DNA of 64,000 nucleotides from Bacillota bacterium (GTDB lineage Bacteria > Bacillota > UBA994 > UBA5500), in contig JAAYHE010000029.1 of the NCBI GenBank assembly GCA_012735505.1, forward strand, positions 1,988 through 65,987, in the 5' to 3' direction. Every line of letters starts with the position of its first letter. Position 1 is the first letter of the stretch. This document shows, in pieces, positions 24,991-38,263 of this stretch. The translations under genes and the position numbers were made by a program. The notes under the pieces are model-generated. The model was not told the DNA's origin, searched no databases, and was given only the letters and a program-made list of their open reading frames with translations.

Positions 24991-25004
24991 AGGAGGTTTT
25001 ATAT

Positions 25005-25742
25005 TTGGACCCCGTTGCTTTTACGGTTGCTGGCATCCCTATCCGCTGGTATGGCATCTTGATTGCGGCGGGAATGTTTATCGGGTTACAATTGGCCTTG
25101 CGCGAAATCAAACGTTTAGGCGAAGATGAGGACAAGTTTATCGACCTGTTTTTGTGGGCCATACCGGCGGCGATCTTAGGAGCCCGTTTATACTACGTTG
25201 CTTTTTCCGGTATGCTAGATTGGTATTTGCGACATCCCCTAGAAATTCTCAACACCCGGCACGGAGGTATGGCCATCCATGGTGGGCTAATAGGGGGCTT
25301 CTTAGCGGGTTGGATATATACGCGCCGGCACCGGATCAACTTTCGTAAGTGGGCAGATGTCGCAGCGCCTAGTGTCATTTTGGGGCAAGCGATAGGGCGT
25401 TGGGGCAACTTTTTTAACCAAGAGGCTTACGGACGCGAAACAAATTTGCCTTGGGCCATGTACATTGATGGGGCTTATCGGCATCCTACTTTTCTTTATG
25501 AATTCCTGTGGAATATGTTGGTGTTTGCCTGGTTGTTAAGGCAACGGCGTCGAAAAAGATTCGATGGCGAAATAGTGCTTTGGTATTTCATGCTCTATTC
25601 CATAGGGCGCTTCTTTATCGAAGGTTTGCGTACCGACAGCCTCATGCTGGGGCCTTTGCGTGTTGCCCAGCTACTGAGTTTGTTGGTAATACTGATTAGC
25701 GGCTGGCTCCTGAGACGCGGTAGACAAAAGGTGCAAAGCTGA
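25005..25742 (+). CDS. lgt: prolipoprotein diacylglyceryl transferase Lgt
   Basis: Lgt signature motifs (IRWYGIL, HGGLIGG, GNFFNQEAYG). TTG start 8 nt after AAGGAGG. Confidence 0.85.
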   Translation: MDPVAFTVAGIPIRWYGILIAAGMFIGLQLALREIKRLGEDEDKFIDLFLWAIPAAILGARLYYVAFSGMLDWYLRHPLEILNTRHGGMAIHGGLIGGFLAGWIYTRRHRINFRKWADVAAPSVILGQAIGRWGNFFNQEAYGRETNLPWAMYIDGAYRHPTFLYEFLWNMLVFAWLLRQRRRKRFDGEIVLWYFMLYSIGRFFIEGLRTDSLMLGPLRVAQLLSLLVILISGWLLRRGRQKVQS

Positions 25743-25797
25743 AGAAAATGGGCAGAAGGGTCATCTCCAGGGCGAGATGGCCTTTTTGTTTTGAGGT

Positions 25798-26247
25798 TTA
25801 GGTAATCCCTCTGGTTGTTAGCCAGCTGATTAACGGGTATCCTAGGCCGACTACCACAACAGCCTCGCTAATTGATAAGGTCAACACGCACAACCAATAG
25901 GGTAAACCTAGCATCGGTGCTAAATAGATACTCACTAAAAATCCGTTTAGCAGCACCGGCCAGACATATGCCAGCCAACTATCTCTCGTGCGATAGGTCA
26001 AATAGGCGGCCATTAGGGTAATCAAGCTACCGCCGAAAATGTCTACCGGGCCTAATCCACCTAAGAAGTTGGCCAACATTACCCCTATATAGAGGGCTAC
26101 TATCGACTCGGGAAATATAATGGGTAATACCGTCAAAGCTTCACTCGCTCTAAATTGAATGTGTCCAAAGCCGACAGGCGCAACCACGAAGGTTATAGTC
26201 ACATACAGGCTAGCAATTATTGCCCCTCGTACCAATCTTTTTGTCAC
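25798..26247 (-). CDS. queT: QueT-family queuosine-precursor transporter (ECF S-component-like)
   Basis: A roughly 150-aa 5-TM protein with the RASEALTVLP motif characteristic of QueT. GTG start preferred (RBS GAGGATGG). Confidence 0.55.
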   Translation of the reverse strand: MTKRLVRGAIIASLYVTITFVVAPVGFGHIQFRASEALTVLPIIFPESIVALYIGVMLANFLGGLGPVDIFGGSLITLMAAYLTYRTRDSWLAYVWPVLLNGFLVSIYLAPMLGLPYWLCVLTLSISEAVVVVGLGYPLISWLTTRGIT

Positions 26248-26530
26248 TTCGTCCACCATCCTCGTGCGGTAAATTCAGTCTTTAGCAGCAGTGTCAAAGT
26301 TGACTCAGCAAACATAGTCTAATAGAACAACAGGTAAATAGCAACTTGGCGCGATGAAAGTGCAAGCTGGTTAACACACTCAGGGGAGAAAATACATATT
26401 ATGCAGCATGCGCCTGGTTAAGAAGTCGTGGTGGAACACAATTATGCTCCTTTTCATAAGATGGTCTGAGAGTACCGCACGACGCGCTCCCTGGCGCCGA
26501 GCAGAATGAGCAAAGGAGGGAAAAGGAAGC

Positions 26531-27133
26531 ATGTGGAATAGCAGTAAGCTGTCAGGCGGTCTGCGCGAGATAAGTACCAGGGCAGTTTGTGCCAAGGGAC
26601 AAAAGCGTTTTCGTCAGATAGATAGCATCGCAACTAGCCAACCGGCTGAAATGGTCTTAGGGCATCGGATCACCAGCCATTCCTTTACAGCAAGGCCCAA
26701 CGTCAATTCGGTAGAAATAAAAGGTAGGTATGATGTGCATATCTGGTATACATACGCCCAAGGCGCTTTGACGGCCGTGGAGAAAAAGACTGTGCACTAC
26801 ACTGAACATCTGCCTGTGGTAGAGCTAGAGGGCACACGTTTGGGCCAAAACGAAACTGTTGAAGTCGAAGTCATCAGGGATCCATCAGTGACCAATGTGC
26901 AAGTTAGGCGCGGCGCAGTTCAAGTCGAAGTGGAAGTGGAGTTTTATGTTGAAATTACCGGAGAGACGAAACTCTGGGTAAGAGTCTACGAGCCTCCCTT
27001 TGCCGACGACAAGAAAGATAAGAAAGCGTTTGACCTTGACCTTAGCAGCGATTACTTCGATGAAGATGACTTCGATGAAGATGGGGAATATGACGACGAA
27101 TTTGAGGATGAAGACCTAGATTTCGTTCCATAA
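26531..27133 (+). CDS. cotE: spore coat morphogenetic protein CotE with an acidic C-terminal tail
   Basis: Aligns with B. subtilis CotE: RAVCAKGQKRF / KAVVAKGRKF, VEIKGRYDVHIWYTYA / VEIEGYYDINVWYSYA, VEITGETKLWV / EVVGETKVVV. It has a poly-acidic tail DEDDFDEDGEYDDEFEDEDLDFVP. Confidence 0.75.
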   Translation: MWNSSKLSGGLREISTRAVCAKGQKRFRQIDSIATSQPAEMVLGHRITSHSFTARPNVNSVEIKGRYDVHIWYTYAQGALTAVEKKTVHYTEHLPVVELEGTRLGQNETVEVEVIRDPSVTNVQVRRGAVQVEVEVEFYVEITGETKLWVRVYEPPFADDKKDKKAFDLDLSSDYFDEDDFDEDGEYDDEFEDEDLDFVP

Positions 27134-27272
27134 TCCCTCCTCTGCTGCTGCAGATGCCGTAGGACTTTGCTCCAGAGGATGACTCTGGAGTTCTTTTTTT
27201 ATAGAGGGTCTTTAGCGCACCGCTTTTCGTACAACAACATATTTTGTAGGGGATGATTGGGGGTGCAGCAGT

Positions 27273-28625
27273 GTGATCAGAGTACAGCTGTACAAATTGC
27301 CACAAACTGGCGAAATACGATTGCCAGCAAACTTTATCAAAGGACGTAGAATCAATGCTAATAACATAATCGTATCTTTTGGTCAAAGACAGGTGGAAGC
27401 TTCTCTAGAGTCCGATCCACACCCTAGTCCTCGCTTTAGGGTCGGACTAAGTTCCGACCTTATGTCTGAGCTAGGTCTAAGGTCCGGTGTCAGGCTGAGA
27501 GCATTTTGGGACGCTCGCAAGCAGCAATTTCGTTTGGGGCCTGTTGTCGCTATCATGGTCTGGCGTTATCGCAGGGTGTCGTCTGCTTGGTTGTTCGGGG
27601 CAGCAACCGACATGGCTCGCACTTTTGTGCGTTTAGCCCGGAGCAGGGGCGTAGTCGCTTATGCTTTTTCTCCTCGCGATATAGATTGGAATAGCAAAGG
27701 GGTTATCGGTTTTGTGCCCGCCGGCAGAGGTTGGCGTAGGGTAAGCCTACCTTTGCCTGATGTGGTTTATGACCGCATCCAGAGTCGGGCCTTAGACGCT
27801 ACTCGCCGCATGCAGAATGTTAAGCGACAACTGATGGCTCTAGAAGGTTTGCATTATTTTAACCCGTGTTTTCTAGATAAATGGGATACTTATCAGGCTT
27901 TAGTGAAAGACCCGATAGTTCAGCGCTACTTGCCTAGGACTGAAAAATTAACTTCCTTGGATCAATTGGGCCCTTGGTTGCGCACTTACCCGACGGTTTA
28001 TATTAAACCCTCACGCGGTTCCTTAGGTCTTGGCATCGTTAAAATATCCCGCATGGCAAGAGGCTTTCGCTACCAACGTATCCGCATGGGGGGAGGTAGT
28101 CAGGCTGGCTTGTGCAGTTCACTCCCTAAACTGGAGCGACGCCTGCGGAACATACTGCCCAAACGAACTATGATTATCCAGCAAGGCTTGCGTTTGGCCC
28201 GATACAAAGGCAGGCCTTACGACATTCGGGTCATGGTACAGAAAACGACCCGAGGCAATTGGGTGTGCACCAATATGATTGCCCGGGTAGCATCAGCCGG
28301 TAGCGCCGTTTCTAATGTAGCCGAAGGAGGGACGATGATTTCCGTGCGCCGAGCTATCCGTGGCTCGCTAAGGATCAATGTTGGATCAGCCGTGCGTCGT
28401 ATTCGCCGAGGGGCGAGACTGATCGCTAGAGCTGTTGAAGAACAATACGGGCAAGAGTTCGGAGAGTTCGGCATCGACATGGCCTTAGATAGGCGTGGCA
28501 GGGTTTGGCTGATTGAAGTAAATGCAAAGCCTGGTAGGCAGACCGACGAACCGGGAACGCCTCCTTCTATGCGGCGGGTTACTCGTTACGCCATAGCGAA
28601 AGCAGGGTTTAGCGAAAGGGGGTGA
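27273..28625 (+). CDS. YheC/YheD-family ATP-grasp enzyme with an N-terminal tandem swapped-hairpin (AbrB/MraZ-like) module
   Basis: ATP-grasp C-terminal motifs (GLRLARYKGRPYDIRVMV, SNVAEGG, IDMALDRRGRVWLIEVNAKPG). They are shared with 30173.., 31252.. and 32597... The N-terminal roughly 100 aa carry two AbrB-like hairpin repeats. Confidence 0.7.
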   Translation: MIRVQLYKLPQTGEIRLPANFIKGRRINANNIIVSFGQRQVEASLESDPHPSPRFRVGLSSDLMSELGLRSGVRLRAFWDARKQQFRLGPVVAIMVWRYRRVSSAWLFGAATDMARTFVRLARSRGVVAYAFSPRDIDWNSKGVIGFVPAGRGWRRVSLPLPDVVYDRIQSRALDATRRMQNVKRQLMALEGLHYFNPCFLDKWDTYQALVKDPIVQRYLPRTEKLTSLDQLGPWLRTYPTVYIKPSRGSLGLGIVKISRMARGFRYQRIRMGGGSQAGLCSSLPKLERRLRNILPKRTMIIQQGLRLARYKGRPYDIRVMVQKTTRGNWVCTNMIARVASAGSAVSNVAEGGTMISVRRAIRGSLRINVGSAVRRIRRGARLIARAVEEQYGQEFGEFGIDMALDRRGRVWLIEVNAKPGRQTDEPGTPPSMRRVTRYAIAKAGFSERG

Positions 28626-28629
28626 GCTA

Positions 28630-30042
28630 GTGGCGCGGAGCCTAGTTATTATGCCTTCTGAAACTAATCGGGCTATCTTAGCAGAGCTGTTGCCCGATGT
28701 AGTTGTCAGCCCCACCTATCAAACGGGAGCTTGGCGTTTCATCATTCGCTTCGGTGATGCAACAGGAAGTGATGACAACGCACTAGTTCTCAATCGGGCT
28801 AGTGCATTGGCCACACCCGATCTAACTGCTAAGGCTCAAGAACATTGGCGAGCCAGTTCCTTACGGTATCACAAGCCGGAAAACAGGGTTACTTTCTATA
28901 AAAGATACCGGGTGCAGGTTTTTGACTGTACCGCTATTTACATGCAAAGGGTTGAAATTGGCAGCCGCCGGGTACGTGTCATACGGCCGAACTTGTCTCG
29001 AGAAACACGGCGTGTAAGTGAACTGGCTTGGCGCGCCTTATATACAGCTGGTTTAGATATAGGTGCAGTAGATATTGGCCTCTCTAGTAGTGGCAAGTTA
29101 TATGTTCTGAGTATCAATCCGTGCCCTCGCTTTAATAGAGCCATTGGGGCAGCATATGCGCGGCACATAACAGCTTGGATGCAGCGGATGGAAGGTCGTG
29201 GAGCTGCTGGCCCCTTGCGATCTTTACTCAACCCTCAAGAAAATGAGTGCCCCCAATACCTGCTGGGGGCAGATCCCGAGTTTACCTTGCGTGACGCTCG
29301 CACGGGGCGCATGGTTTTTGCCTCGGATTATTTCCCGATGCAGGGAGTCATTGGTTGCGATGCTCGGCGCGTAAGGCTAGGCCGGTCCGGTTATCCTCTA
29401 GCCGAGGTAAGGCCTGCTCCAACCCAATGCCCCTTAGAGCTTTACGAAAGCATTCGCGATCTCCTATTGATGGCCCACCGCAAGGTTCCTCGCCGCTACA
29501 TCCAGTGGCGAGCTGGAACTTTACCATTCAGCCAACTGCCGGTTGGAGGACACATCCATTTTAGTATGTTACCTACTAACCATTTTTTACGAGCACTAGA
29601 TAATAGTTTAGCTGTTGTTTTCCTAATGCTAGAAAACCCTGGAGCGGCTCGCAGACGGCGCCGCAGTTATGGTTGGTTGGGTGACTATCGTCTCAAAAAG
29701 CATGGCGGATTTGAATATCGTGCTATCCCTAGTTGGCTAGTCAGTCCAGTATTTGCCCGCGGGGCTTTGTGTTTGGCCAAAGTTATAGGGTGTGACTGGC
29801 ATCGTTGGCGTTACGATTTTTTCCTCCGTCCTGAAGCCCAAGTTGCCTTTAAAAGAGCTGATCAAGATTACTTTCGAGTCGAATTAGCGAAAGTGCTTGT
29901 AGCTATTAGGTCGTTATCTAGTTATGTCAAATATTCCCAAGAAATCGAGGCGCTGTTGAATTACGTTGAGCAAGGACGGCGCTGGACTACAGCGACCGAC
30001 ATCAGACGCAGTTGGCGATTACGCGCTTCTAGTCGCACTTAG
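28630..30042 (+). CDS. fusion protein: truncated ATP-grasp C-terminal subdomain plus COOH-NH2 ligase-like (glutamine-synthetase-fold amidoligase) domain
   Basis: The N-terminal roughly 190 aa match only the C-terminal lobe of the neighbouring ATP-grasps (AVDIGLSSSGKLYVLSINPCP). The C-terminal roughly 270 aa have GADPEF...GGHIHFS motifs reminiscent of GCS2 / phiEco32-like COOH-NH2 ligases. Confidence 0.5.
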   Translation: MARSLVIMPSETNRAILAELLPDVVVSPTYQTGAWRFIIRFGDATGSDDNALVLNRASALATPDLTAKAQEHWRASSLRYHKPENRVTFYKRYRVQVFDCTAIYMQRVEIGSRRVRVIRPNLSRETRRVSELAWRALYTAGLDIGAVDIGLSSSGKLYVLSINPCPRFNRAIGAAYARHITAWMQRMEGRGAAGPLRSLLNPQENECPQYLLGADPEFTLRDARTGRMVFASDYFPMQGVIGCDARRVRLGRSGYPLAEVRPAPTQCPLELYESIRDLLLMAHRKVPRRYIQWRAGTLPFSQLPVGGHIHFSMLPTNHFLRALDNSLAVVFLMLENPGAARRRRRSYGWLGDYRLKKHGGFEYRAIPSWLVSPVFARGALCLAKVIGCDWHRWRYDFFLRPEAQVAFKRADQDYFRVELAKVLVAIRSLSSYVKYSQEIEALLNYVEQGRRWTTATDIRRSWRLRASSRT

Positions 30043-30045
30043 CGC

Positions 30046-30109
30046 GGGCACAAGGTTTTCGCGAAAACCATATATTGTACTACTATAGGAAACATCCTTC
30101 CTTGTGCCC
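30046..30109 (+). promoter_or_regulatory. nested inverted repeats between paralogs 2 and 3 (gggcacaagg...ccttgtgccc enclosing palindrome ggttttcgcgaaaacc)
   Basis: 10-bp perfect arms at 30046-30055 and 30100-30109, and a 16-bp perfect palindrome at 30054-30069. No U-tract follows. Confidence 0.3.
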
Positions 30110-30172
30110 ACGTGTGGCTGGGCTGTAATGAGACGGGTACACCAGAGGGAGAGGCAGTGGGGGTGGCTATAT

Positions 30173-31255
30173 ATGGTAAAGGGTAGAGACTTAGTAGGGG
30201 TGCTATCTATCCGCCGGCCTGGTCCGCGTCCTTTTGCAGAAGGTAGATTCTTTCGGGAATTGATGTGGGCAGGCCGGCAAGTTGGCATACGACTAATTAT
30301 ATTTAGCCCGTTGGACATCGACTGGGAGAGGGGTAGAGTCTTAGGTTTTGTTTATGTGCCCAGTAGGGGCTGGCGGTCCAGATATTATCCTGTTCCGCGC
30401 CTTATTTACGACCGTTTGTTTCCCAGCTCTGGTACCTGGGGGTTGTACTATAACCAAGTTATCCGCATGCGGCGTGTTTTTCGGGTAAGAATGCTGAACC
30501 GAGGTTTGCGTGGGAAATGGCAGATGTATCGCATTGTGAGAAGGTACGAGGATCTACGGCCCTATCTGCCCGAAACTCGCCTCGGCAGTTACCGCAACTT
30601 GTCTGTCATGTTAGCCAAATACAGTACCGTATTCGTTAAGCCTGTTTTTGGCAGTGGTGGCAAAGGCATTTGCCGCATCCAAAGGGGACGCGACGGTTAT
30701 TTGGTCGATAGGAGTGGCAGGCCGCGCATTCGCACGCACTCTCTATTAGGCGTCATCTATGCTTTAGGGGGCATAAATCGGCGTTATCTGATTCAGCAAG
30801 GCTTGAAGCTCAACTACTTAAACGGGAGAACTTTTGATGTTCGCAGCATCGTGCAAAGGAACGGTCAAGGCGAATGGCAGGTTTCCGGCAAAGCGATCCG
30901 AGCTGGTCGACGGGGCAGAATTACTTCCAATTTACATACGGGAGGCCGGGCCTACAACGTTTCTTCCGTATTGCAGCAGTATTTTCCTGATCGAGCTGAA
31001 GAGATTGAAAAAGAAATGGAAGCATTGGCAGTACGAGTGGCAGAGGTCATGAGTCAGCGTGCGGGTCCTCTATGCGACCTAGGACTAGATATGGGCGTAG
31101 ATGTTAATGGTAAAGTATGGTTGATAGAGGTTAACTCTAAGCCAGGGCGCACTGTCTTTCTGCGCATGGGCGATCGAGAAGGCCGGCGCCGGGTTGTGCA
31201 GACGTTAATGGAATATGCCCGCTATCAGATAGATCAACAGCGTCAGAGGAGGTGA
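30173..31255 (+). CDS. YheC/YheD-family ATP-grasp enzyme (no N-terminal extension)
   Basis: Motifs GLKLNYLNGRTFDVRSIV, GRITSNLHTGG, LDMGVDVNGKVWLIEVNSKPG. ATG at 30173 follows GGGGGTGG. The ORF track starts at 30104. Confidence 0.7.
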   Translation: MVKGRDLVGVLSIRRPGPRPFAEGRFFRELMWAGRQVGIRLIIFSPLDIDWERGRVLGFVYVPSRGWRSRYYPVPRLIYDRLFPSSGTWGLYYNQVIRMRRVFRVRMLNRGLRGKWQMYRIVRRYEDLRPYLPETRLGSYRNLSVMLAKYSTVFVKPVFGSGGKGICRIQRGRDGYLVDRSGRPRIRTHSLLGVIYALGGINRRYLIQQGLKLNYLNGRTFDVRSIVQRNGQGEWQVSGKAIRAGRRGRITSNLHTGGRAYNVSSVLQQYFPDRAEEIEKEMEALAVRVAEVMSQRAGPLCDLGLDMGVDVNGKVWLIEVNSKPGRTVFLRMGDREGRRRVVQTLMEYARYQIDQQRQRR

Positions 31256-32619
31256 TACCGGATATGGTGGAAACAGGTTATGCGCGGGTGCTTGGTTATG
31301 CTAGCGAATCAGCTTCGTGTATTTTGCCCCGCAGTTTGCTCGCCCGTCTCGGCTGGCGCCAAGGCGACATAGTCAATATAGCTTTCGGCCGTGCCAGCAG
31401 GCCCGTTAAGTTAAGGGCAGGCGATGACGATGTTTGGCGGGTTTCTACCGACTTGTTGCGCCATATAGGTCTTCGTCCCAGGAAATGGCTCTATTGCGTT
31501 GACACTGGGCGCAAGTTGATACGCTTTGGTCCATTAATCGGGATTATGACAACTTGGCATGTTACTCCGTATTTTCGTTCTGTGATGCGAGCAGCTGCCC
31601 GCAAAGGTATGATGGCGGTTGTTTTTAGACCCTATGACTTGCGCCTTGGTGGCAGGCAAATGAGTGCCTGGGCTCTGGTTGGCGGCGGAATGCAGAGAAT
31701 ACGGGTCCCTTGGCCCGATGTGGTTTATAACCGCATCCCCAACCGGGGGGGAGAATTGTTAGGCAGCACTAGAGCCTGCAGACGATTATTAGCACGCGCT
31801 TCAATCCCTGTTTTTAATAGCAAATTTTTTCATAAATGGCGCATCCATCGCCTCCTGCGGAGAGATGAACAGGCTAGGCAATATTTACCTGAGACACAAC
31901 CCATGGTTAGTATGAAACAAGCACGTCAGTTTTTGCACAAATACCCGATGATTTATCTCAAACCCAATGGCGGTAGTAAGGGACAAGGAATTGTACGCAT
32001 TAGGCGTGGGCAAGGGTACTCGGTCTCTTTCCGTCGGGGTCACCATAATTTCCAGCGTACATGTACCAGTTGGCTTGAGGCAGGAAATTTAGCCAGAAGA
32101 GGTATGCATAGACGGACTTACGTTGTGCAGGAAGGTGTGCCCTTAGCTAGGTACCATGGGCGTCCTTTCGACGTGCGGGTAACGTTATACAAGAATGGAA
32201 ATGGGGAATGGATTCCCTGCGGTCCAGCAGCAAAAATAGCCGGGCGGGGTAGCATCACAACCCATGTGGCTAACGGAGGACGAGTAGTTCCATTAGATCG
32301 AGTGCTCCGCCACGTCTTCGGCAGCGAGGCAGAGACAATGCGAGTGCGGATTGAAACGGCTTCTATAGACTTGGCTCGCGCGGTAGAACGGGTAACCGGG
32401 CTCGAATTGGGTGAGCTGGGATTAGACATCGGTCTTACTACCCAAGGCCGTGTTGCGATGTTTGAAGCCAATAGCAAGCCTGGCCGTGCCATCTTTGCGG
32501 CTGCTTGGAATCGTGACGATAGGCGGAAATCGTTATCGTACCTATGTGATTATGCCGCTTCTTTAGCAGGGTTTACGAATAGCGGGGTGAAGACTGATGC
32601 CAAAACTGCTAACTGTTAG
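31252..32619 (+). CDS. YheC/YheD-family ATP-grasp enzyme with an N-terminal tandem swapped-hairpin module
   Basis: Motifs GVPLARYHGRPFDVRVTL, GSITTHVANGG, LDIGLTTQGRVAMFEANSKPG. The N-terminus has CILPRSLLARLGWRQGDIVNIAF and WRVSTDLLRHIGLRPRKWLYCVDTGRKLIRF. The start is ambiguous (GTG 31252 or ATG 31264). Confidence 0.7.
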   Translation: MIPDMVETGYARVLGYASESASCILPRSLLARLGWRQGDIVNIAFGRASRPVKLRAGDDDVWRVSTDLLRHIGLRPRKWLYCVDTGRKLIRFGPLIGIMTTWHVTPYFRSVMRAAARKGMMAVVFRPYDLRLGGRQMSAWALVGGGMQRIRVPWPDVVYNRIPNRGGELLGSTRACRRLLARASIPVFNSKFFHKWRIHRLLRRDEQARQYLPETQPMVSMKQARQFLHKYPMIYLKPNGGSKGQGIVRIRRGQGYSVSFRRGHHNFQRTCTSWLEAGNLARRGMHRRTYVVQEGVPLARYHGRPFDVRVTLYKNGNGEWIPCGPAAKIAGRGSITTHVANGGRVVPLDRVLRHVFGSEAETMRVRIETASIDLARAVERVTGLELGELGLDIGLTTQGRVAMFEANSKPGRAIFAAAWNRDDRRKSLSYLCDYAASLAGFTNSGVKTDAKTANC

Positions 32620-33895
32620 GGTGTCATTCGCTGGCACAAGTAAGATTAACCTCCATCTGCCCGGATGCAAAAATGAATCTGTATCCCTCAGTATGGGATC
32701 TTTTAACGCCCTTGCACAAATGCAACCGGCAGACACAGCCGAGTTGGTCCTACATCGCACAGCTGCCCGTCAGATGGGGTTAAGGGATAAAGAAAAAATA
32801 GCTTATTACCGGCAGGGTAAAACCGTTAAGACAGGGCCTGTAGTAGGAATCTTAACCGCAGGCCAAGGTGTAGTTCCGGGGAACCGCGAGATGTTTCGAT
32901 TCGTGCAAAGGGCCTGCCAGCAGGCGGGCCTGGTGGCTTATGTTTTTACCCCAGCTGATGTAGATTGGACGCGCAACGTGGTCAGGGGATATCAATATCG
33001 TCAGGGACGCTGGCAATCTCGCCGTTTTCCTTTGCCCGACGTCGTCTATAATCGTGTCCCCAATCGGCAATTGGAGAGGGGTAGCGCCGTACGGTTGGTT
33101 AAACAGCGCCTGCGTTCTCGCGGCATTCCTTATTATAACTCCCATTATCTTAATAAATATGACTTGTATCGCATCTTGAGAGACACCGAAGTAGAGCCCC
33201 ACTTACCTTGGACCAGATCAGTAAGCAAAACTAGCGATATCGCAGGCGCCTTAAGACGGTTTGGCAGTGTTTACCTAAAGCCTAAACATGCTTTTGCTGG
33301 CAAAGGTATTTTGCGCGTCGATCTGCGGCCGTCTGGCTGGACTCTAAGATATCGTATGGGTCGTAATAGGGAAGTTAATGGCAGCACTCTAGCCGCTTTG
33401 TGGCCTGTACTTCATCGCCATATGGGCGGAAAAGGCTACGTGGTGCAGCAAGCTATACCTTTAGCACGCTATCAGGGGAGAGCTTTCGATGTGCGGTTGC
33501 TGGCACAGAAAAATGAGGCAGGTTACTGGCAAGTAACTGGCATGGGAATTCGCGTTGCTGGTAAGGGTAGCATCACAACACATGTTCCCAATGGTGGCTT
33601 TATCGCATCTGCTGATAAGGTCATTCCCGAGGTGTTCGGTTCACAAGCAGCTGAGGTTAGAGAAAATGTCGTGCGCTTAGCCCTTATGGTGGCACCCATC
33701 GTAGAAAAAAGTAGTCGGGGGCTATTTGGCGAGATGTCCATGGACATTGGTATTGATAGACAAGGGTGGCCTTGGTTCTTTGAAGCCAACGCCAAACCCA
33801 TGCGTTTTGACGAATCAGGTATCAGGAGGCGAGGGTTGGCGACCTTGGTCGCATATGCGAAATATCTCGCAGGAGTGCCCGAGGGAGGAGGGTAG
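32597..33895 (+). CDS. YheC/YheD-family ATP-grasp enzyme (single N-terminal hairpin-like motif)
   Basis: Motifs AIPLARYQGRAFDVRLLA, GSITTHVPNGG, MDIGIDRQGWPWFFEANAKP. It overlaps the previous gene by 23 nt. Confidence 0.7.
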   Translation: MPKLLTVRVSFAGTSKINLHLPGCKNESVSLSMGSFNALAQMQPADTAELVLHRTAARQMGLRDKEKIAYYRQGKTVKTGPVVGILTAGQGVVPGNREMFRFVQRACQQAGLVAYVFTPADVDWTRNVVRGYQYRQGRWQSRRFPLPDVVYNRVPNRQLERGSAVRLVKQRLRSRGIPYYNSHYLNKYDLYRILRDTEVEPHLPWTRSVSKTSDIAGALRRFGSVYLKPKHAFAGKGILRVDLRPSGWTLRYRMGRNREVNGSTLAALWPVLHRHMGGKGYVVQQAIPLARYQGRAFDVRLLAQKNEAGYWQVTGMGIRVAGKGSITTHVPNGGFIASADKVIPEVFGSQAAEVRENVVRLALMVAPIVEKSSRGLFGEMSMDIGIDRQGWPWFFEANAKPMRFDESGIRRRGLATLVAYAKYLAGVPEGGG

Positions 33896-33901
33896 CAAGG
33901 C

Positions 33902-34372
33902 ATGGTAAGGTACCAGCGCATCACTGAGCTTGATTTGGCGCGGCACAGGAGAGCTATGTTGCGCCTGATACGAGCCCACGGTGATAGGCACATCACACGT
34001 AAAGCCTACCAGAATTTGCGTACCATGCGGCCCGCGAGGTTAGCGCGAGAGGGGAATGTGATCTGGACAGCTTGGGATGGCGATCTCTTAGTAGGTGTGA
34101 TTATTTGTGAAAGTTATGGTAAGCGTACTTCTTTTTCAGTTGTGCGCAAGAGTCACCGGTCGCGCGGAATTGCTAAGGCACTTTTACTGCGTGCAGTAAA
34201 CTCTATGGGTAGGTTTTATGCCGAGGTAGCGTCTGATAACCTGGCTAGCATGAAAGTGCTATTTGGCATGGGTATGGTAGCCTACGATGCTTTCGTGCGC
34301 TATGGCAAAATCATCTTACGTGTACGTAATGGCTTCAACGTTTCATCGCTTGAGGAAGAAGACCGTGGGTGA
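33902..34372 (+). CDS. GNAT-fold acetyltransferase-like protein
   Basis: 156 aa with an acyl-CoA-binding-like segment VVRKSHRSRGIAKALL. It follows the last ATP-grasp gene by 6 nt and has a GGGAGGAGGG RBS. Confidence 0.45.
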   Translation: MVRYQRITELDLARHRRAMLRLIRAHGDRHITRKAYQNLRTMRPARLAREGNVIWTAWDGDLLVGVIICESYGKRTSFSVVRKSHRSRGIAKALLLRAVNSMGRFYAEVASDNLASMKVLFGMGMVAYDAFVRYGKIILRVRNGFNVSSLEEEDRG

Positions 34373-34535
34373 AATATTAATCAGGCCGCGACCTGTTGGG
34401 AGAGTCTCCGACAGGTTGTGGCCTGATTGTTTAAGTGAAGGTCTCTTTTGCTTCCTGGCTCAGGCAAGCATAAAGTTAAAGTCCGCCCCATAGAAATGAA
34501 ACGATGGAGAATACTGCGGGGAAGGAGCGATTGGC

Positions 34536-35888
34536 GTGAACATATGGCGTGGGGCAGACATCGCTCAAATATTTGGTGTAGAAGATGAGGGGTTAGTGCA
34601 AAATGGAGTGTTTTGTTTAAGCACTCCTTTCGGGCCGGCCGCACCTTCCGTCTATCGGGGTGATGTACGTTTCCTACAGTGGTTAGGGGCTGAGCTGCCC
34701 AGCATTACCACTAGGCTGGGGCGCCTAGGATTAAGTCGACTGTTACCTACGCCTGCAGGCCAATATTATGCCAATCTAGGTGGTGAATATGTGCTGCTGG
34801 CAACACTAGAGACGGGGCCGATTTGCGATGTCCATAACGCCTTTGAATTATTTACCGTCTCTGTTGGCCTAGCCCATGTCCATGCACAAGATGTGGGGGG
34901 AATAACGAGCAGTTCTCCTGATTGGTCAACTTATTATCAGGCTCAACGCGATAAGTTAGAACAAATAAGGCCGCCAGATCTATCTAGGCGAGCGCGGGCT
35001 GCCTGGGCTTTGTTGGAGGAGAGTTGGCAGCTTTGTATCGACGAAGCAGTGAGTCTGCTGGCAGATATACCTCGCGAAGCACGTGCGACTTGTTTAACCT
35101 TGGGGTTGAAAAGCTTCAGTGATTTTATTTATTTACCTGATTTACACCGAGTGCATTATAACCCGATTGCTAATTGCCGCCTGGATTCACCTGCCGTTGA
35201 CATCGCGCGTCTGTTGCTATCTGCTTCTGGCGATGTGCGTGTGATACATAACATGTTGTTATCGTACCAGCGGGTGAGGGAAATACCACCGGTGGAAGGG
35301 CAAGAAATATTGGCGCACCTTTGGTTCCCCCATGAAATAGATCTGCAAGTATTAGGAGAGCAAGGAGCAAATACGCTAAGCGTGCAGCGGCATTATAATC
35401 TTTTGCGAGATAAGATCGCGATGATAGCCGAAGTGGAAGATTTACTCTCACCCTTTGAACAAGGGGAAAATAATGAAGAGGAAACGGAGGTGCTGTCGAT
35501 GGCTAAAAGACAATCGAGGGAAGCGAGGACGAACCCGGTGACCTTAACTACGGCAGGAGAGGAAGACAATATTTTAACGCAAGAGCAAGTAGAATTGGTG
35601 GAACCGGCTGGGGACGGCGAGCCAGTAAATGTTAGTCAACCGCAAGAGGTGCCTGAACCCGCGCCAGAAGTGGCAGAGGAGGAAACAGTGCCACGTATCA
35701 ACCTAGAGGCGAAAAGAGAGGTAAAACCTATAGTCTGGGGTCCTTTCCCTAAACCTTTGGGAGCCGCCGATGACGAGGATGACGAGGAAGATAACATTGC
35801 AGTTGAACAAGAACCATTATCTGAGGAAGTAAGCTCGGAAGAACCAGATGCCTCAATAGAAACGGAGCCTCAACCAGATATTTGTTAA
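34536..35888 (+). CDS. CotS/kinase-fold-like spore coat protein candidate with a roughly 150-aa poly-acidic C-terminal tail
   Basis: The N-terminal roughly 300 aa are globular with a degenerate phosphotransferase-like segment (IYLPDLHRVHYNPIANC...VDIARLL). The C-terminus is low-complexity, rich in E/D/P (DDEDDEEDNIAVEQEPLSEEVSSEEPD...). GTG start after AAGGAG. Confidence 0.35.
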   Translation: MNIWRGADIAQIFGVEDEGLVQNGVFCLSTPFGPAAPSVYRGDVRFLQWLGAELPSITTRLGRLGLSRLLPTPAGQYYANLGGEYVLLATLETGPICDVHNAFELFTVSVGLAHVHAQDVGGITSSSPDWSTYYQAQRDKLEQIRPPDLSRRARAAWALLEESWQLCIDEAVSLLADIPREARATCLTLGLKSFSDFIYLPDLHRVHYNPIANCRLDSPAVDIARLLLSASGDVRVIHNMLLSYQRVREIPPVEGQEILAHLWFPHEIDLQVLGEQGANTLSVQRHYNLLRDKIAMIAEVEDLLSPFEQGENNEEETEVLSMAKRQSREARTNPVTLTTAGEEDNILTQEQVELVEPAGDGEPVNVSQPQEVPEPAPEVAEEETVPRINLEAKREVKPIVWGPFPKPLGAADDEDDEEDNIAVEQEPLSEEVSSEEPDASIETEPQPDIC

Positions 35889-35950
35889 TGGCTGCGTCGG
35901 CAAATGGGGCATACTAGTTATGTCACGTAGCTGTAAATCTAGCAGAAAGG

Positions 35951-36127
35951 ATGATGGTCGTGGCTCGAGGACGAGGCTTTATGTCCGACGAACTCAAGTA
36001 CCGACTGGCTGACGAGCTAGGTTTCGGGGATATAGTTCGCCAACATGGTTGGGGAGCTATCACTACCCGGGATGCAGGCAATCTGGTAAAGGCGGCTATC
36101 GCCAAGGCCCAGCAGATGATGCAATAA
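35951..36127 (+). CDS. ssp: alpha/beta-type small acid-soluble spore protein (SASP)
   Basis: Translation ...MSDELKYRLADELGFGDIVRQHGWGAITTRDAGNLVKAAIAKAQQMMQ follows the alpha/beta SASP pattern (KYEIAxEFGV...TSRxNG...KRLVxxAQQ). Three alternative in-frame starts exist (35951, GTG 35960, ATG 35981). Below the ORF-track cutoff. Confidence 0.5.
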   Translation: MMVVARGRGFMSDELKYRLADELGFGDIVRQHGWGAITTRDAGNLVKAAIAKAQQMMQ

Positions 36128-36143
36128 CAGCTATAGTGACAGA

Positions 36144-36175
36144 GGGCTGTCTCCGTCAGGAGCAGCCCTTATTTT
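36144..36175 (+). terminator. rho-independent terminator after the SASP gene
   Basis: A gggctgtctcc / ggagcagccc stem followed by TTATTTT. Confidence 0.5.
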
Positions 36176-36294
36176 ACTTCGCAGCAAAGTTGACAGGAGT
36201 ATATTACCGCAGCTAGCGCCAAACATGGTGCTGTAGGCAGTTACAGCTGCATAAACATAGAATAGCTCACTCTTGGTACCACCCTTATTTCAAC

Positions 36295-36323
36295 TTGACA
36301 CCCGAGGCCGTAATCTGTATGAA
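36295..36323 (+). promoter_or_regulatory. sigma-A-type promoter (TTGACA -35, 17 nt spacer, TATGAA -10) about 170 nt upstream of the small-peptide ORF
   Basis: Perfect -35 at 36295-36300 and a 5-of-6 -10 at 36318-36323. Confidence 0.4.
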
Positions 36324-36495
36324 TTGGCACATTCCGTTTGCTCGCGATTGGCAACAAGAGCACAGACCTCCCATTTGAAATTCTTCTGCATTTTCTTATC
36401 AGTAGGGCAGGAATACGCTAGGTAATTAGAGAATATGGCATTTAGTGAGTGAGGCTGACCTCTACAGCCTTGAGGTACCAGGGAGGTGAAAAAGC

Positions 36496-36573
36496 ATGTG
36501 GGATACCTATAATATCATTTTTGCCATTGTGGTCGTTGTAGTTGGCGTTGTCGCCTTAATGTCTTCTAAGTAG
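36496..36573 (+). CDS. 25-aa hydrophobic single-TM peptide (MWDTYNIIFAIVVVVVGVVALMSSK)
   Basis: A strong GGGAGGTG RBS lies 9 nt upstream and a clean terminator immediately downstream. It has its own promoter, and an anti-SD CCTCCC sits in its 5' leader. Confidence 0.4.
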   Translation: MWDTYNIIFAIVVVVVGVVALMSSK

Positions 36574-36608
36574 CTACAAAGACCTATAAGACACTTGGCT
36601 CTAGCTGA

Positions 36609-36644
36609 CCCATAACTAGGTGAAGTTATGGGCAGCTTTTTTTT
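36609..36644 (+). terminator. rho-independent terminator (cccataact/agttatggg + T8)
   Basis: A 9-bp stem with a 6-7 nt loop, followed by TTTTTTTT. Confidence 0.6.
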
Positions 36645-36885
36645 GCCCATTTTTAGGCTTACGCAGGTGGTGCATCCGTACGCTTGCACTGCTTGAACAG
36701 CCTTAGTTAGGCCTCGAGGCTTACCTGCTGCTGCCCCTTTAGGGCATTAGTCACATAAGTCAGTAGAATTTCTGAAAAAGCAGTGGGGAAAGAAGGAGTT
36801 GTTATGGCTGAAGCGAATATAATGTGGTGAAAAGTGGTGTATAGTGGGGATAAGTGGTGTAGTACCCAGCAAAGGGGGGAGGCAA

Positions 36886-37317
36886 GTGCTCCTAGGCGAG
36901 TATCAACATAGCGTTGATGAAAAGGGACGACTGACTATTCCCTCGCGTTTGCGAGAAGGTTTAGGCGAACGATTCGTGGTTACTAAGGGATTAGACAGTT
37001 GTCTCTTTGTCTACCCCCTAGCAGAGTGGAATGCTCTAGAAACTAAGTTAAGGGCTTTGCCCCTAACACGTCCCGAGGCCCGTTCTGTCGTTCGTTTGTT
37101 CTTCTCTGGCGCCATCGAGTGTGAGCTTGATCGCCAAGGTCGCATTTTATTGCCTCCCAATTTGCGTAGCCATGCTCGACTCGTAAAAGATGCATACATT
37201 ATTGGCGTATCTAATCGAGTAGAAATTTGGGATAAGGAAACATGGGAAGAATACAGTCAACAAGCTGCGGCTTCTTTCGAGCAAGCTGCTGCGCATCTGG
37301 ATGATCTAGGCATCTAG
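36886..37317 (+). CDS. mraZ: transcriptional regulator MraZ
   Basis: A GTG start (VLLGEYQHSVDEKGRLTIP) lies 6 nt after AAAGGGGGGAGG. It carries the tandem DxxGR swapped-hairpin repeats typical of MraZ. Confidence 0.85.
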   Translation: MLLGEYQHSVDEKGRLTIPSRLREGLGERFVVTKGLDSCLFVYPLAEWNALETKLRALPLTRPEARSVVRLFFSGAIECELDRQGRILLPPNLRSHARLVKDAYIIGVSNRVEIWDKETWEEYSQQAAASFEQAAAHLDDLGI

Positions 37318-37333
37318 CGAGAGAGGTGGCAAA

Positions 37334-38263
37334 ATGAGCTTTTCACATGAACCTGTATTACTGCAAGAAACTCTAGACCTATTGGAGCCACTACCCGGGG
37401 AAACCGTCGTAGACTGCACTTTAGGTGCTGGTGGACACACCATGGCCATGTGGCAACGCATGCAAGGCAAGGGACGACTGATTGCTATCGACCAAGACCC
37501 TGCTGCTATTGCCAACGCTAAGGCCACGCTGCCAACTGAAATTGTACTTGTGCATGACAACTTTCGCAATTTAAAATCCATCCTTCTATCATTAGGCGTT
37601 GACTATGCGCACCGGATACTTTTTGACCTCGGAGTATCATCGCCACAATTAGATATAGCTGAACGGGGCTTTAGTTATCAACAAGAGGCGGCACTCGATA
37701 TGCGCATGAACCCTGACAATAGCTTGACAGCTGCCCAATTAGTAAATGAATCGACGGAGGAAGAACTAGCACGCATCATCTGGGAATATGGAGAAGAACG
37801 CTGGGCAAAGCGCATAGCAGCCTTTGTGGTTAAGTATCGGCAAGAAAAGGGCCCAATCGAGACAACAGGTCAGTTGGTAGACATTATTAAGCGGGCCGTG
37901 CCAGCCGCTGCTCGCCAAAATGGACCTCATCCAGCCAAGCGCACCTTTCAGGCTTTACGTATCGCCGTTAATAATGAATTAGAGCTCTTGGCGCCTGCCT
38001 TGGAGATAGCGATTGATTCGTTAACACCGGGCGGGCGTGTAGCGGTTATTTCTTTTCATTCCTTAGAAGATCGTATCGTAAAACAGGTCTTCCGCAAACT
38101 GGCACAGGGTTGTACTTGCCCGCCCCGTTTACCTGTCTGTATTTGTGGGAAGGAGCCGAAGTTAAAAATCATAACGAAAAGACCGGTCACCCCGAGTAAA
38201 AGTGAAATAAAAAATAACCCTAGGGCCCGCAGCTCTAAACTGCGTGTAGCTGAGCGCTGCTAA
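37334..38263 (+). CDS. rsmH: 16S rRNA (cytosine1402-N4)-methyltransferase RsmH (MraW)
   Basis: SAM-binding motif VDCTLGAGGH. Full-length match to RsmH architecture. Confidence 0.9.
   Translation: MSFSHEPVLLQETLDLLEPLPGETVVDCTLGAGGHTMAMWQRMQGKGRLIAIDQDPAAIANAKATLPTEIVLVHDNFRNLKSILLSLGVDYAHRILFDLGVSSPQLDIAERGFSYQQEAALDMRMNPDNSLTAAQLVNESTEEELARIIWEYGEERWAKRIAAFVVKYRQEKGPIETTGQLVDIIKRAVPAAARQNGPHPAKRTFQALRIAVNNELELLAPALEIAIDSLTPGGRVAVISFHSLEDRIVKQVFRKLAQGCTCPPRLPVCICGKEPKLKIITKRPVTPSKSEIKNNPRARSSKLRVAERC

What the first reader, a model, noticed from the sequence alone, without database searches (positions are those of the whole stretch)
34536..35888. Both structural proteins flanking the ligase array end in long poly-acidic tails (candidate RimK/TTLL-like ligation substrates)
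Seen: CotE (26531..27133) ends ...DLDLSSDYFDEDDFDEDGEYDDEFEDEDLDFVP. The CotS-like ORF ends in a ~150-aa E/D/P-rich low-complexity region (..NNEEETEV..DDEDDEEDNIAVEQEPLSEEVSSEEPDASIETEPQPDIC). Established: RimK extends the acidic C-terminus of ribosomal protein S6 with Glu, and TTLL enzymes glutamylate acidic tubulin tails; both are ATP-grasps. Inference: the adjacent ATP-grasp paralogs may extend, branch or cross-link these acidic tails (for example isopeptide links to lysines of other coat proteins).
Basis: inference. Interest (0 to 1): 0.6.

Follow-up and report, generated by a model that had tools for sequence, protein, structure and literature searches.

The report
Acidic tails beside spore-coat ligase operon
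Two spore-coat proteins on either side of an operon of six peptide-bond-forming enzymes do carry long, negatively charged, disordered tails, but such a tail is a general and already studied feature of CotE, and the idea that the enzymes chemically modify the tails is plausible, apparently not new, and untested.

Summary
CotE (26531-27133) has 17 D/E in its last 30 residues. The kinase-fold ORF (34536-35888) ends in a 145-aa disordered region with 28% D/E, 12% Pro and net charge -32. These are the two most acidic C-termini among 59 ORFs in the window.

For it:
- CotE sits next to a PF14395 COOH-NH2 ligase in several unrelated genomic contexts.
- All four YheC/D paralogs keep the ATP-grasp catalytic residues.
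- The nearest solved structures to YheC/D-1 are RimK and ArgX/LysX, which modify acidic protein C-termini.
- All six enzymes are extremely basic (net +15 to +49).

Against it:
- The acidic tail occurs across the CotE family and has ligase-independent roles in B. cereus and B. subtilis.
- Neither protein ends in Glu.
- Conserved terminator-like hairpins split the locus into three transcription units.
- Ligase arrays occur without CotE in Syntrophomonadaceae.
- The kinase-fold protein belongs to a tiny lineage-restricted family. Its conserved tail feature is a WxPFP motif, not acidity.

The CotE-ligase association is, as I recall, already in the literature and in Pfam annotation. No covalent modification can be shown from sequence.

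The parts
26435..26464 (+). Conserved promoter-like element upstream of cotE (AACAC-N15-CATAAGATGG), resembling mother-cell sigma-K/sigma-E -10 boxes
   Evidence: TCATA.GATGG and ACAC are invariant in 5 loci (alignment A8). Assignment to a sigma factor is inference from B. subtilis consensus sequences.
26531..27133 (+). cotE, outer spore coat morphogenetic protein (200 aa, pI 4.6, net -18)
   Evidence: PF10628, E 4.9e-33, residues 11-178; charge.
26999..27130 (+). CotE acidic/aromatic C-terminal tail (aa 157-200: FADDKKDKKAFDLDLSSDYFDEDDFDEDGEYDDEFEDEDLDFVP)
   Evidence: 17 D/E in the last 30 aa. The core G[DE][YF][FY]DEDDF is conserved in L001-L007. An equivalent tail is unstructured in B. 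cereus CotE (PMC11980541).
27169..27191 (+). Terminator-like hairpin plus T-run after cotE
   Evidence: Hairpins at the same place in L001, L002, L003, L006 and L007.
27218..27246 (+). Conserved promoter-like element upstream of the ligase operon (CACCGC..ACATATTTTG)
   Evidence: Alignment A4. Sigma assignment is inferred.
27273..28625 (+). YheC/D ATP-grasp paralog 1 (450 aa, net +49, pI 11.5), with an N-terminal small beta-barrel domain (aa 1-95)
28630..30042 (+). COOH-NH2 ligase type 2, glutamate-cysteine-ligase-like (470 aa, net +30)
   Evidence: PF14395, E 6.7e-87. Relatives found in 567 species genomes.
30104..31255 (+). YheC/D ATP-grasp paralog 2 (383 aa, net +42; lacks the N-terminal barrel)
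   Evidence: PF14398, E 1.6e-75; alignment A5.
31252..32619 (+). YheC/D ATP-grasp paralog 3 (455 aa, net +42); start overlaps the previous stop by 4 nt
   Evidence: PF14398, E 6e-77.
32597..33895 (+). YheC/D ATP-grasp paralog 4 (432 aa, net +34); overlaps the previous gene by 23 nt
   Evidence: PF14398, E 4e-68.
33902..34372 (+). GNAT acetyltransferase-fold protein (156 aa, net +15), last gene of the ligase operon
   Evidence: PF00583, E 5e-6; PF13673, E 9e-6.
34381..34426 (+). Strong terminator-like hairpin (20-bp stem) after the GNAT gene
   Evidence: Comparable hairpins in L001-L003, L006 and L007.
34468..34497 (+). Conserved sigma-E-like promoter element upstream of the kinase-fold gene (GCATAAA-N14-CATAGAAAT)
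   Evidence: Alignment A3; GCATAwt-N14-CATAGAwA in 5 of 6 loci. Sigma assignment is inferred.
34536..35453 (+). Kinase-like (APH/CotS superfamily) domain of the 'CotS-like' protein, aa 1-306; probably non-canonical or inactive
   Evidence: Foldseek top hits: 4pdy APH (E 2e-7) and 2q83 YtaA (E 1e-4) on a low-confidence model. hhalign to an APH-family protein: probability 95%. TIGR02906 scores only 21 bits against a 172.7 cutoff.
35454..35885 (+). Acidic Glu/Pro-rich disordered C-terminal region (aa 307-450, net -32)
   Evidence: pLDDT below 50; composition.
35730..35762 (+). Invariant short linear motif IVWGPFPKPLG inside the disordered region
   Evidence: V400, W401, P403, F404 and P405 are invariant in 14 homologues. 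W[KGR]xFP is retained in distant relatives whose tails are not acidic.

Best explanation
The two acidic regions are genuine, conserved, intrinsically disordered modules of two mother-cell-expressed coat proteins. Their primary role is most likely non-covalent.

CotE's tail is the family-wide polyanionic assembly and docking module. In B. cereus it gates CotE meshwork formation through Ca2+. In B. subtilis it docks CotH.

In this locus the tail is the most probable contact surface for the six unusually cationic amidoligase-type enzymes encoded next to it: four RimK-like YheC/D ATP-grasps, one glutamate-cysteine-ligase-like COOH-NH2 ligase and one GNAT. The proposed effect is electrostatic recruitment of the enzymes to the nascent outer coat. 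There they ligate amino acids or peptides onto coat components, possibly including CotE itself.

The tail of the kinase-fold protein is a flexible acidic spacer. It presents a conserved WGPFPxPLG docking peptide from a probably non-catalytic CotS/APH-like domain.

Shown: sequence features, disorder, conservation, gene linkage, enzyme fold and charge.
Inferred: mother-cell expression, the docking role, and any ligation chemistry.
For: - Tails are real, conserved and disordered.
- The acidic tail is present in all tailed CotE homologues examined, and the Pfam CotE profile extends into it.
- Published ligase-independent functions exist for the CotE tail: PMC11980541 (recombinant B. cereus CotE; deleting the tail removes the Ca2+ requirement) and PMC4618286 (B. 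subtilis CotE needs an acidic C-terminus to bind CotH).
- The CotE-ligase linkage recurs in different contexts: lgt..mraZ in this lineage, miaB-ymcA-cotE-ligase-mutS-mutL in Thermoactinomycetaceae, Tepidibacillus and Ammoniphilus, and other orders in Thermincola-type, Kyrpidia and Limnochordales loci.
- The enzymes carry net +49, +30, +42, +42, +34 and +15, against -18 and -44 for the flanking proteins. Across loci, 151 YheC/D homologues have median pI 10.0 and 83 ligases have median pI 9.6.
- The conserved feature of the kinase-fold protein's tail across its whole family is the WxPFP motif, not acidity.
- All three units carry conserved mother-cell-type CATA -10 boxes.
Against: - No binding data exist for this system.
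- In B. subtilis, a bacterial two-hybrid assay found no YheD-CotE interaction, and YheD localisation depends on SpoIVA rather than CotE (PMC7911427, PMC7725329).
- High pI could instead serve binding to another polyanion.
- The strong CotE-ligase linkage and RimK/LysX-like fold fit a true enzyme-substrate relation at least as well as mere docking.
- The docking role of WGPFPxPLG is inferred only from its conservation inside a disordered region.
Confidence: 0.45

Rival explanations
1. Covalent tail modification (the first reader's reading; as I recall, essentially the prediction of Iyer et al. 2009). The YheC/D ATP-grasps and the COOH-NH2 ligase activate Asp/Glu side-chain or C-terminal carboxylates of the CotE tail as acyl-phosphates. 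They then add amino acids, either as branches or chains in the TTLL manner, or by ligating the tail to lysines of other coat proteins in the PafA-Pup manner. The GNAT caps the free amines.
For: - CotE-ligase adjacency is conserved in unrelated contexts.
- Four anciently diverged (28-33% identity) but catalytically intact paralogs suggest distinct sequential specificities, as with TTLL initiases and elongases.
- The enzymes are cationic.
- The tail has a positionally conserved acidic-aromatic core, suggesting specific recognition.
Against: - No C-terminal Glu in this lineage, and the C-terminal residue varies.
- The tail is Asp-rich (16 D against 6 E), whereas RimK, TTLL and LysX act on Glu.
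- The tail is equally acidic where only one ligase is adjacent, and in B. cereus (PMC11980541); I recall the same for B. subtilis.
- Unmodified recombinant CotE is functional in vitro (PMC11980541).
- No paper in the searched library reports CotE glutamylation or any YheC/D activity.
- The YheC/D proteins are not RimK-family members by sequence (16 bits against a 21 cutoff; TIGR00768 19 against 143).
- cotE is a separate transcription unit.
Confidence: 0.3
2. The ligase operon makes or modifies something other than the two flanking proteins. This could be a non-ribosomal peptide or polymer of the coat or cortex, or tags on other coat proteins. On this reading CotE and the kinase-fold gene are merely co-located sporulation genes, and the acidity of their tails is unrelated to the enzymes.
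For: - Ligase/YheC/D arrays occur without any CotE or acid-tailed ORF within 10 kb in 16 of 39 well-flanked loci, mostly Syntrophomonadaceae.
- The locus is three separate transcription units.
- Within the window's lineage the whole region lgt..dcw is syntenic, so linkage there carries little weight.
- B. subtilis YheD shows no interaction with CotE (PMC7911427).
Against: - Independent re-occurrence of cotE-ligase adjacency in at least four gene orders is hard to explain without a functional link.
- Acid-tailed ORFs in these neighbourhoods are almost exclusively CotE.
- The extreme enzyme basicity next to polyanionic proteins would be coincidental.
Confidence: 0.2
3. The acidic disordered region of the kinase-fold ('CotS-like') protein is itself a ligation substrate of the array, for example by polyglutamylation of its many Glu residues.
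For: - It is Glu-rich (32 E), disordered and adjacent to the array.
- The gene order array-then-kinase-fold gene is kept in all six loci of the lineage, including the divergent L007.
Against: - The family is tiny: 21 representatives at E<=1e-3 among 1.84 billion, against relatives of the ligase in 567 species genomes.
- Distant members P0239, P0241 and P0242 have non-acidic tails (net +2, -1, +3) yet keep the WxPFP motif.
- The gene has its own promoter-like element and follows a terminator-like hairpin.
- Tail sequence outside the motif is unconserved and the C-terminus is variable.
Confidence: 0.1

Closest known systems
RimK and ribosomal protein S6 (E. coli; PDB 4iwx, 5zct, 5zk6)
   Different: The YheC/D proteins fail the RimK family thresholds. 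They have an extra N-terminal barrel domain and are far more basic. RimK extends a C-terminal Glu-Glu (established knowledge), whereas CotE here ends ..DFVP and the second protein ends ..PDIC.
TTL/TTLL enzymes and tubulin C-terminal tails
   Different: Only a borderline 51-residue PF03133 match was found, in one paralog (20.4 bits against a 20.1 cutoff). TTLLs branch from Glu gamma-carboxyls, while CotE's tail is mostly Asp. No modification has been shown.
LysX/ArgX and the amino-group carrier protein LysW (PDB 3vpb, 5k2m)
   Different: From general knowledge, LysW is a small zinc-finger carrier in a biosynthetic operon. There is no lysine or arginine biosynthesis context here, and neither flanking protein ends in Glu.
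PafA and Pup (pupylation)
   Same: A carboxylate-amine ligase of the glutamine-synthetase / glutamate-cysteine-ligase-like superfamily, the superfamily to which the PF14395 ligase is assigned (from memory), joins the carboxylate of a disordered protein's C-terminal Glu to lysines of other proteins.
   Different: From general knowledge only. No PafA/Dop family match was sought or found, there is no C-terminal GGQ/GGE, and there is no proteasome context.
CotE C-terminal tail of B. cereus and B. subtilis
   Same: It is the same protein family (PF10628) with the same unstructured acidic tail. In B. cereus the tail spans residues 147-180 with 15 acidic residues. It inhibits meshwork assembly until Ca2+ is present (PMC11980541). 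In B. subtilis an acidic C-terminus is needed to bind CotH (PMC4618286).
   Different: To my knowledge the model-organism cotE has no ligase next to it (order ymcA-cotE-mutS). Here, and in many other Bacillota, cotE is followed by one to six amidoligase genes. The tail here ends in a hydrophobic D[FY][VT][LP] rather than an acidic residue.
Bacterial spore kinases: CotS, YtaA/CotI (PDB 2q83), YutH, YsxE; APH family PF01636
   Same: The domain has a kinase-like fold. Top Foldseek hits are an APH and YtaA. Profile hits reach APH-family proteins, with hhalign probability 95%. It has a mother-cell promoter-like element and coat-gene neighbours.
   Different: It scores below every curated family threshold. 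In the hhalign alignment the HxDxxxxN loop is shortened, keeping only D196, and the metal-binding Asp aligns with Asn209, so it may be a pseudokinase. As far as I know it is alone among these proteins in carrying a 110-185-aa disordered tail with a WxPFP motif.
Graspetide (microviridin-type) ATP-grasp ligases MdnC, PsnB and CdnC
   Different: They form intramolecular lactones and lactams in small leader-bearing precursor peptides. No such precursor was noticed among the ORFs of the locus, although this was not specifically searched.

Membership tests
CotE (PF10628) | Match to the CotE profile above the gathering score | tested here: met
   114.6 bits against a cutoff of 25, residues 11-178.
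CotE (PF10628) | Acidic unstructured C-terminal tail as in characterised CotE proteins | tested here: met
   17 D/E in the last 30 aa. The same holds in 35 CotE homologues from related loci. The B. cereus tail is described in PMC11980541.
YheC/D ATP-grasp (PF14398) | Profile match above cutoff, and intact ATP-grasp catalytic residues (Lys plus Gly-rich loop, D..R, D, E-x-N) | tested here: met
   230-259 bits against a cutoff of 26.8 for all four paralogs. K245, P246, G252, G254, Q303, D317, R319, D402, E415 and N417 are invariant.
COOH-NH2 ligase type 2 (PF14395) | Profile match above cutoff | tested here: met
   291 bits against a cutoff of 25, residues 212-464.
RimK family (PF08443 / TIGR00768) | Sequence membership above the curated cutoffs | tested here: not met
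   Best PF08443 score is 16.0 bits against 21. TIGR00768 scores 19.3 against 143.4.
RimK family (PF08443 / TIGR00768) | RimK-like three-dimensional structure | tested here: met
RimK family (PF08443 / TIGR00768) | Substrate protein ends in Glu-Glu, which is extended by alpha-linked Glu | tested here: not met
   CotE ends DLDFVP and the kinase-fold protein ends PQPDIC. Homologue C-termini vary: L, P, R, V, H, W, E.
TTL/TTLL (PF03133) | Sequence membership | tested here: inconclusive
   Only paralog 1 matches, at 20.4 bits against a cutoff of 20.1, over a 51-residue stretch (386-436). The other three do not match.
TTL/TTLL (PF03133) | Acts on disordered, Glu-rich C-terminal tails of a polymer-forming protein | not testable with these tools
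   Tails of the right kind are present. No modification can be read from DNA.
CotS / bacterial spore kinase (TIGR02906; APH PF01636) | Sequence membership above the curated cutoffs | tested here: not met
   TIGR02906 scores 21.2 bits against 172.7. No Pfam family matches.
CotS / bacterial spore kinase (TIGR02906; APH PF01636) | Kinase-like (APH/CotS) fold | tested here: met
   Foldseek top hits are 4pdy APH (E 1.9e-7) and 2q83 YtaA (E 1.1e-4), though the model is weak (domain pLDDT about 60-85, TM 0.3-0.4). hhalign to APH-family P0247 gives probability 95.4%. Distant profile hits are PF01636 proteins.
CotS / bacterial spore kinase (TIGR02906; APH PF01636) | Catalytic HxDxxxxN loop and metal-binding Asp | tested here: inconclusive
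   In the hhalign alignment D196 aligns with the catalytic Asp, the loop Asn falls in a gap, and the FDMD Asp aligns with invariant N209. Alignment confidence in this stretch is unknown.

The most novel reading that the evidence does not exclude
The six polycationic ligases build heteropeptide branches on Asp/Glu side chains of the CotE tail, a bacterial counterpart of the tubulin code. This would tune Ca2+-gated CotE meshwork assembly or covalently stitch CotE to lysines of outer-coat proteins. The kinase-fold protein's acidic region and WGPFPxPLG peptide would act as a second substrate or a competitive regulator of the same enzymes.
Probability: 0.2. Interest if true: 0.8.

Novelty: new member of a known kind. 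Interest (0 to 1): 0.4.

Why it matters
YheC/D proteins are conserved spore-coat components whose biochemical function is still unknown (PMC7911427; bioRxiv 10.1101/2022.02.25.481979). CotE is the central outer-coat organiser. If the linked ligases modify or cross-link CotE's tail, that would be, to my knowledge, a previously undescribed ATP-dependent post-translational system for building spore coats. It would also be a prokaryotic analogue of tubulin polymodification.

This work does not show that. It narrows the question to a testable one:
- CotE is the credible partner; the lineage-specific kinase-fold protein is much less so.
- RimK-style C-terminal extension is unlikely, so side-chain chemistry or docking are the options.
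- Cultured genera carrying the linkage are available for experiments: Thermoactinomyces, Kroppenstedtia, Tepidibacillus, Ammoniphilus, Phosphitispora, and perhaps Thermincola and Kyrpidia (only MAG loci of the last two were seen here).

Tried and rejected
- The key prior paper could not be read: Iyer, Abhiman, Burroughs and Aravind 2009, Mol Biosyst 5:1636, PMC3268129. My statement that it and the Pfam texts for PF14395 and PF14398 already link YheC/D and COOH-NH2 ligases with CotE rests on memory. only confirms the citation.
- Literature searches for CotE glutamylation or YheC/D enzymology found nothing relevant.
- Sequence search of the PDB with the kinase-fold family profile and with YheC/D-2 gave no meaningful hits.
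- Pfam at E<=10 on the N-terminal domains of YheC/D-1, -3 and -4, on the ligase N-terminus and on the acidic region gave only sub-threshold hits: UFD1_N1 at E 0.038 and Dala_Dala_lig_C at E 0.17.
- Rfam found nothing in 24000-38000.
- The sigma-70 promoter scan was no better than shuffled sequence.
- The genomic context of the distant kinase-fold relatives P0239 and P0240 could not be judged because the contigs end just upstream.
- Chance or a spurious ORF extension was considered and rejected, because the tail contains an invariant in-frame motif across 14 or more homologues.
- RimK-type C-terminal polyglutamylation was considered and rejected as the mechanism, because the C-termini are non-acidic and variable.
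- Reading the three units as one operon was considered and rejected, because terminator-like hairpins are conserved between them.
Full report
**What is there**

The window comes from an uncultured Bacillota MAG. Its 450-aa protein is 100% identical to P0001, 'MAG: Firmicutes bacterium GX060_04330'. On the + strand between lgt/queT and mraZ lie:
- cotE (26531-27133; PF10628);
- four YheC/D-type ATP-grasp genes (27273-28625, 30104-31255, 31252-32619, 32597-33895; PF14398);
- a PF14395 COOH-NH2 ligase (28630-30042);
- a GNAT gene (33902-34372);
- the ORF of the finding (34536-35888).

**Observation**

Both quoted tails are in the sequence.
- CotE has 17 D/E and no K/R in its last 30 residues.
- The second protein has about 306 folded residues, then 145 residues with 28% D/E (32 E, 9 D), 12% Pro and net charge -32.
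- AlphaFold2 gives pLDDT below 50 for residues 307-450.
- Among 59 non-nested ORFs of the window, these two have the most acidic C-termini.
- Across 84 related loci, 37 of 2024 ORFs have 12 or more D/E in the last 30 residues: 35 are CotE and 2 are this protein.

One caveat: the second 'tail' is an acidic Glu/Pro-rich disordered region interrupted by a conserved motif, not a homopolymer-like acidic run.

**The 'CotS-like' protein**

No curated family reaches threshold. TIGR02906 scores 21 bits against 172.7, and there is no Pfam hit. Three lines still place it in the kinase-like superfamily:
- The best Foldseek matches of a weak model are an aminoglycoside phosphotransferase and B. subtilis YtaA/CotI.
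- An exhaustive profile search reaches APH-family proteins at its weak end.
- Profile-profile alignment to one of them has 95% probability.

In that alignment only the catalytic Asp (D196) is retained. The loop Asn is deleted and the metal-binding Asp is Asn209. This suggests a non-canonical or dead kinase, tentatively.

The family is tiny. There are 14 clusters in 5.8 billion proteins and 21 representatives at E<=1e-3 in 1.84 billion.

Its tail sequence is unconserved except for EKEVLxVSKK just after the domain and the invariant V-W-G/K-P-F-P-x-P-L-G. More distant relatives (P0238-P0242) keep W[KGR]xFP at the end of a disordered linker. In three of them the linker is not acidic, with net +2, -1 and +3. 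The selected feature is therefore the motif, and acidity is clade-specific.

**CotE and the ligases**

Relatives of the PF14395 ligase were confirmed at 567 places in the species-representative genome collection. In 39 fetched loci with at least 5 kb on both sides, 23 have cotE within 10 kb. The gene orders and surroundings differ:
- this lineage: lgt-queT-cotE-array-kinase-fold gene-mraZ;
- Thermincola/Phosphitispora type: two CotE paralogs (the first tailless, the second acid-tailed), four YheC/D and the ligase;
- Kyrpidia and Limnochordales variants;
- Thermoactinomycetaceae, Tepidibacillus and Ammoniphilus: miaB-ymcA-cotE-ligase-mutS-mutL. From my knowledge this is the B. subtilis cotE site with a ligase inserted.

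This recurrence argues for a functional link between CotE and the amidoligases. To my recollection the link was already noted by Iyer et al. 2009 and in the Pfam annotation of PF14395 and PF14398. I could not open the paper.

The remaining 16 loci, mostly Syntrophomonadaceae, have YheC/D-ligase pairs with no CotE or acid-tailed ORF nearby.

**Are the enzymes of the RimK/TTLL kind?**

- The four paralogs share only 28-33% identity but keep every ATP-grasp catalytic residue.
- They are not RimK-family members by sequence.

So 'works like RimK, LysX or TTLL' is reasonable at the level of fold. Membership in those families is not.

**A new supporting observation: charge**

All six enzymes are extremely basic: net +49, +30, +42, +42, +34 and +15, with pI 10.3-11.5. 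The two flanking proteins carry -18 and -44. This holds across loci: 151 YheC/D homologues have median pI 10.0 and 83 ligases have median pI 9.6.

**Evidence against a simple substrate reading**

1. RimK needs a C-terminal Glu (established knowledge). CotE here ends DFVP, the other protein ends PDIC, and the termini vary among homologues.
2. CotE's tail is mostly Asp, with 16 D against 6 E.
3. The tail is family-wide and the Pfam CotE profile extends into it. It has demonstrated ligase-independent roles. The unstructured tail of recombinant B. cereus CotE blocks meshwork assembly until Ca2+ is added, and deleting it removes the Ca2+ requirement (PMC11980541). B. subtilis CotE must end in an acidic residue to bind CotH (PMC4618286).
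4. In B. subtilis, YheD showed no two-hybrid interaction with CotE, and its function is called unknown (PMC7911427).
5. Terminator-like hairpins follow cotE (27169-27191) and the GNAT gene (34381-34426). They recur at both places in five related loci. Each unit has its own conserved CATA-type, mother-cell-like promoter element. The locus is therefore three transcription units, not one operon.
6. Within the lineage the whole lgt-to-dcw region is syntenic. The position of the kinase-fold gene therefore carries little independent weight.

**Conclusion**

The tails are real. CotE is a credible functional partner of the ligases. The kinase-fold protein is a weak candidate.

- The best-supported mechanism is electrostatic docking and assembly control by the polyanionic tails, with the cationic ligases recruited to the CotE layer (confidence about 0.45).
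- Covalent modification of the CotE tail by side-chain or cross-link chemistry remains a live rival (about 0.3). It is apparently a previously predicted hypothesis, and RimK-type extension is not the likely route.
- Ligases acting on unrelated substrates: about 0.2.
- Modification of the kinase-fold tail: about 0.1.

Nothing here can show a covalent product. The decisive experiments are listed separately.

Noticed in passing
window 35951-36127 (+), with GGGGCATACTAG at 35906-35917: A 58-aa ORF (MMVVARGRGFMSDELKYRLADELGFGDIVRQHGWGAITTRDAGNLVKAAIAKAQQMMQ) resembles an alpha/beta-type small acid-soluble spore protein. PF00269 gives E 8e-4 and 19.8 bits, just below the cutoff of 22, while covering nearly the whole profile. 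A sigma-G-like CATACTA box precedes it. A 52-60-aa gene sits at the same place in L001-L003.
   Followed up: partly
window 27273-27557, 31252-31530, 32597-32835 (N-termini of YheC/D paralogs 1, 3 and 4): Three of the four ATP-grasp paralogs carry an extra N-terminal domain of about 80-95 aa; paralog 2 lacks it. In the confident model of paralog 1 it is a small beta-barrel with two short helices. It may be of the swapped-hairpin or double-psi (AbrB/VAT-N/UFD1-N) type. The only hit is UFD1_N1 at E 0.038. It is a candidate substrate- or peptide-binding module, and it is also present in Syntrophomonas homologues that lack a nearby CotE.
   Followed up: partly
window 27273-34372: All six enzymes of the operon are extraordinarily basic and Arg-rich: 45-65 Arg each in the ATP-grasps, net +15 to +49, pI 10.3-11.5. 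The other 51 ORFs of the window have median pI 7.7. The charge is spread over all domains.
   Followed up: yes
L009 2837-4048; also L014, L018, L021, L026, L029: Thermincola/Phosphitispora-type loci encode two tandem CotE paralogs ahead of four YheC/D genes and the ligase. The first ends right after the fold (..VQVYSETE, no tail). The second has a linker and an acidic/aromatic tail (..DLKYDEDLPEDDDDYDY).
   Followed up: partly
L013 6721-15918 (Thermoactinomyces sp. DSM 45891); similar in L015, L024, L027, L056, L057 and others: In several Bacilli the PF14395 ligase is inserted between cotE and mutS, giving the order miaB-ymcA-cotE-ligase-mutS-mutL, with no YheC/D gene adjacent. CotE there ends in a conserved DLDPDL[VI][IF]DDL[ED]D motif.
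   Followed up: partly
window 23583-24990 (-): An MFS-transporter gene that is intact in related loci (397-431 aa in L001-L003) is split here into three consecutive ORFs in three different frames (24391-24990, 24050-24376, 23583-24029). This points to a pseudogene or to frameshift errors in the MAG assembly.
   Followed up: no
window 28630-29265 (N-terminal 212 aa of the COOH-NH2 ligase protein): The region ahead of the PF14395 domain has no family assignment. There is only a faint Dala_Dala_lig_C (ATP-grasp) hit at E 0.17. One database homologue (P0133) is a PF14398-PF14395 fusion. This hints that the N-terminal part may be a degenerate ATP-grasp remnant.
   Followed up: no
window 36128-36843: About 700 bp between the SASP-like ORF and mraZ have no ORF of note and no Rfam match. 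In L001 and L002 the corresponding interval holds fumarate hydratase genes, so this looks like a lineage-specific deletion or gene loss.
   Followed up: no
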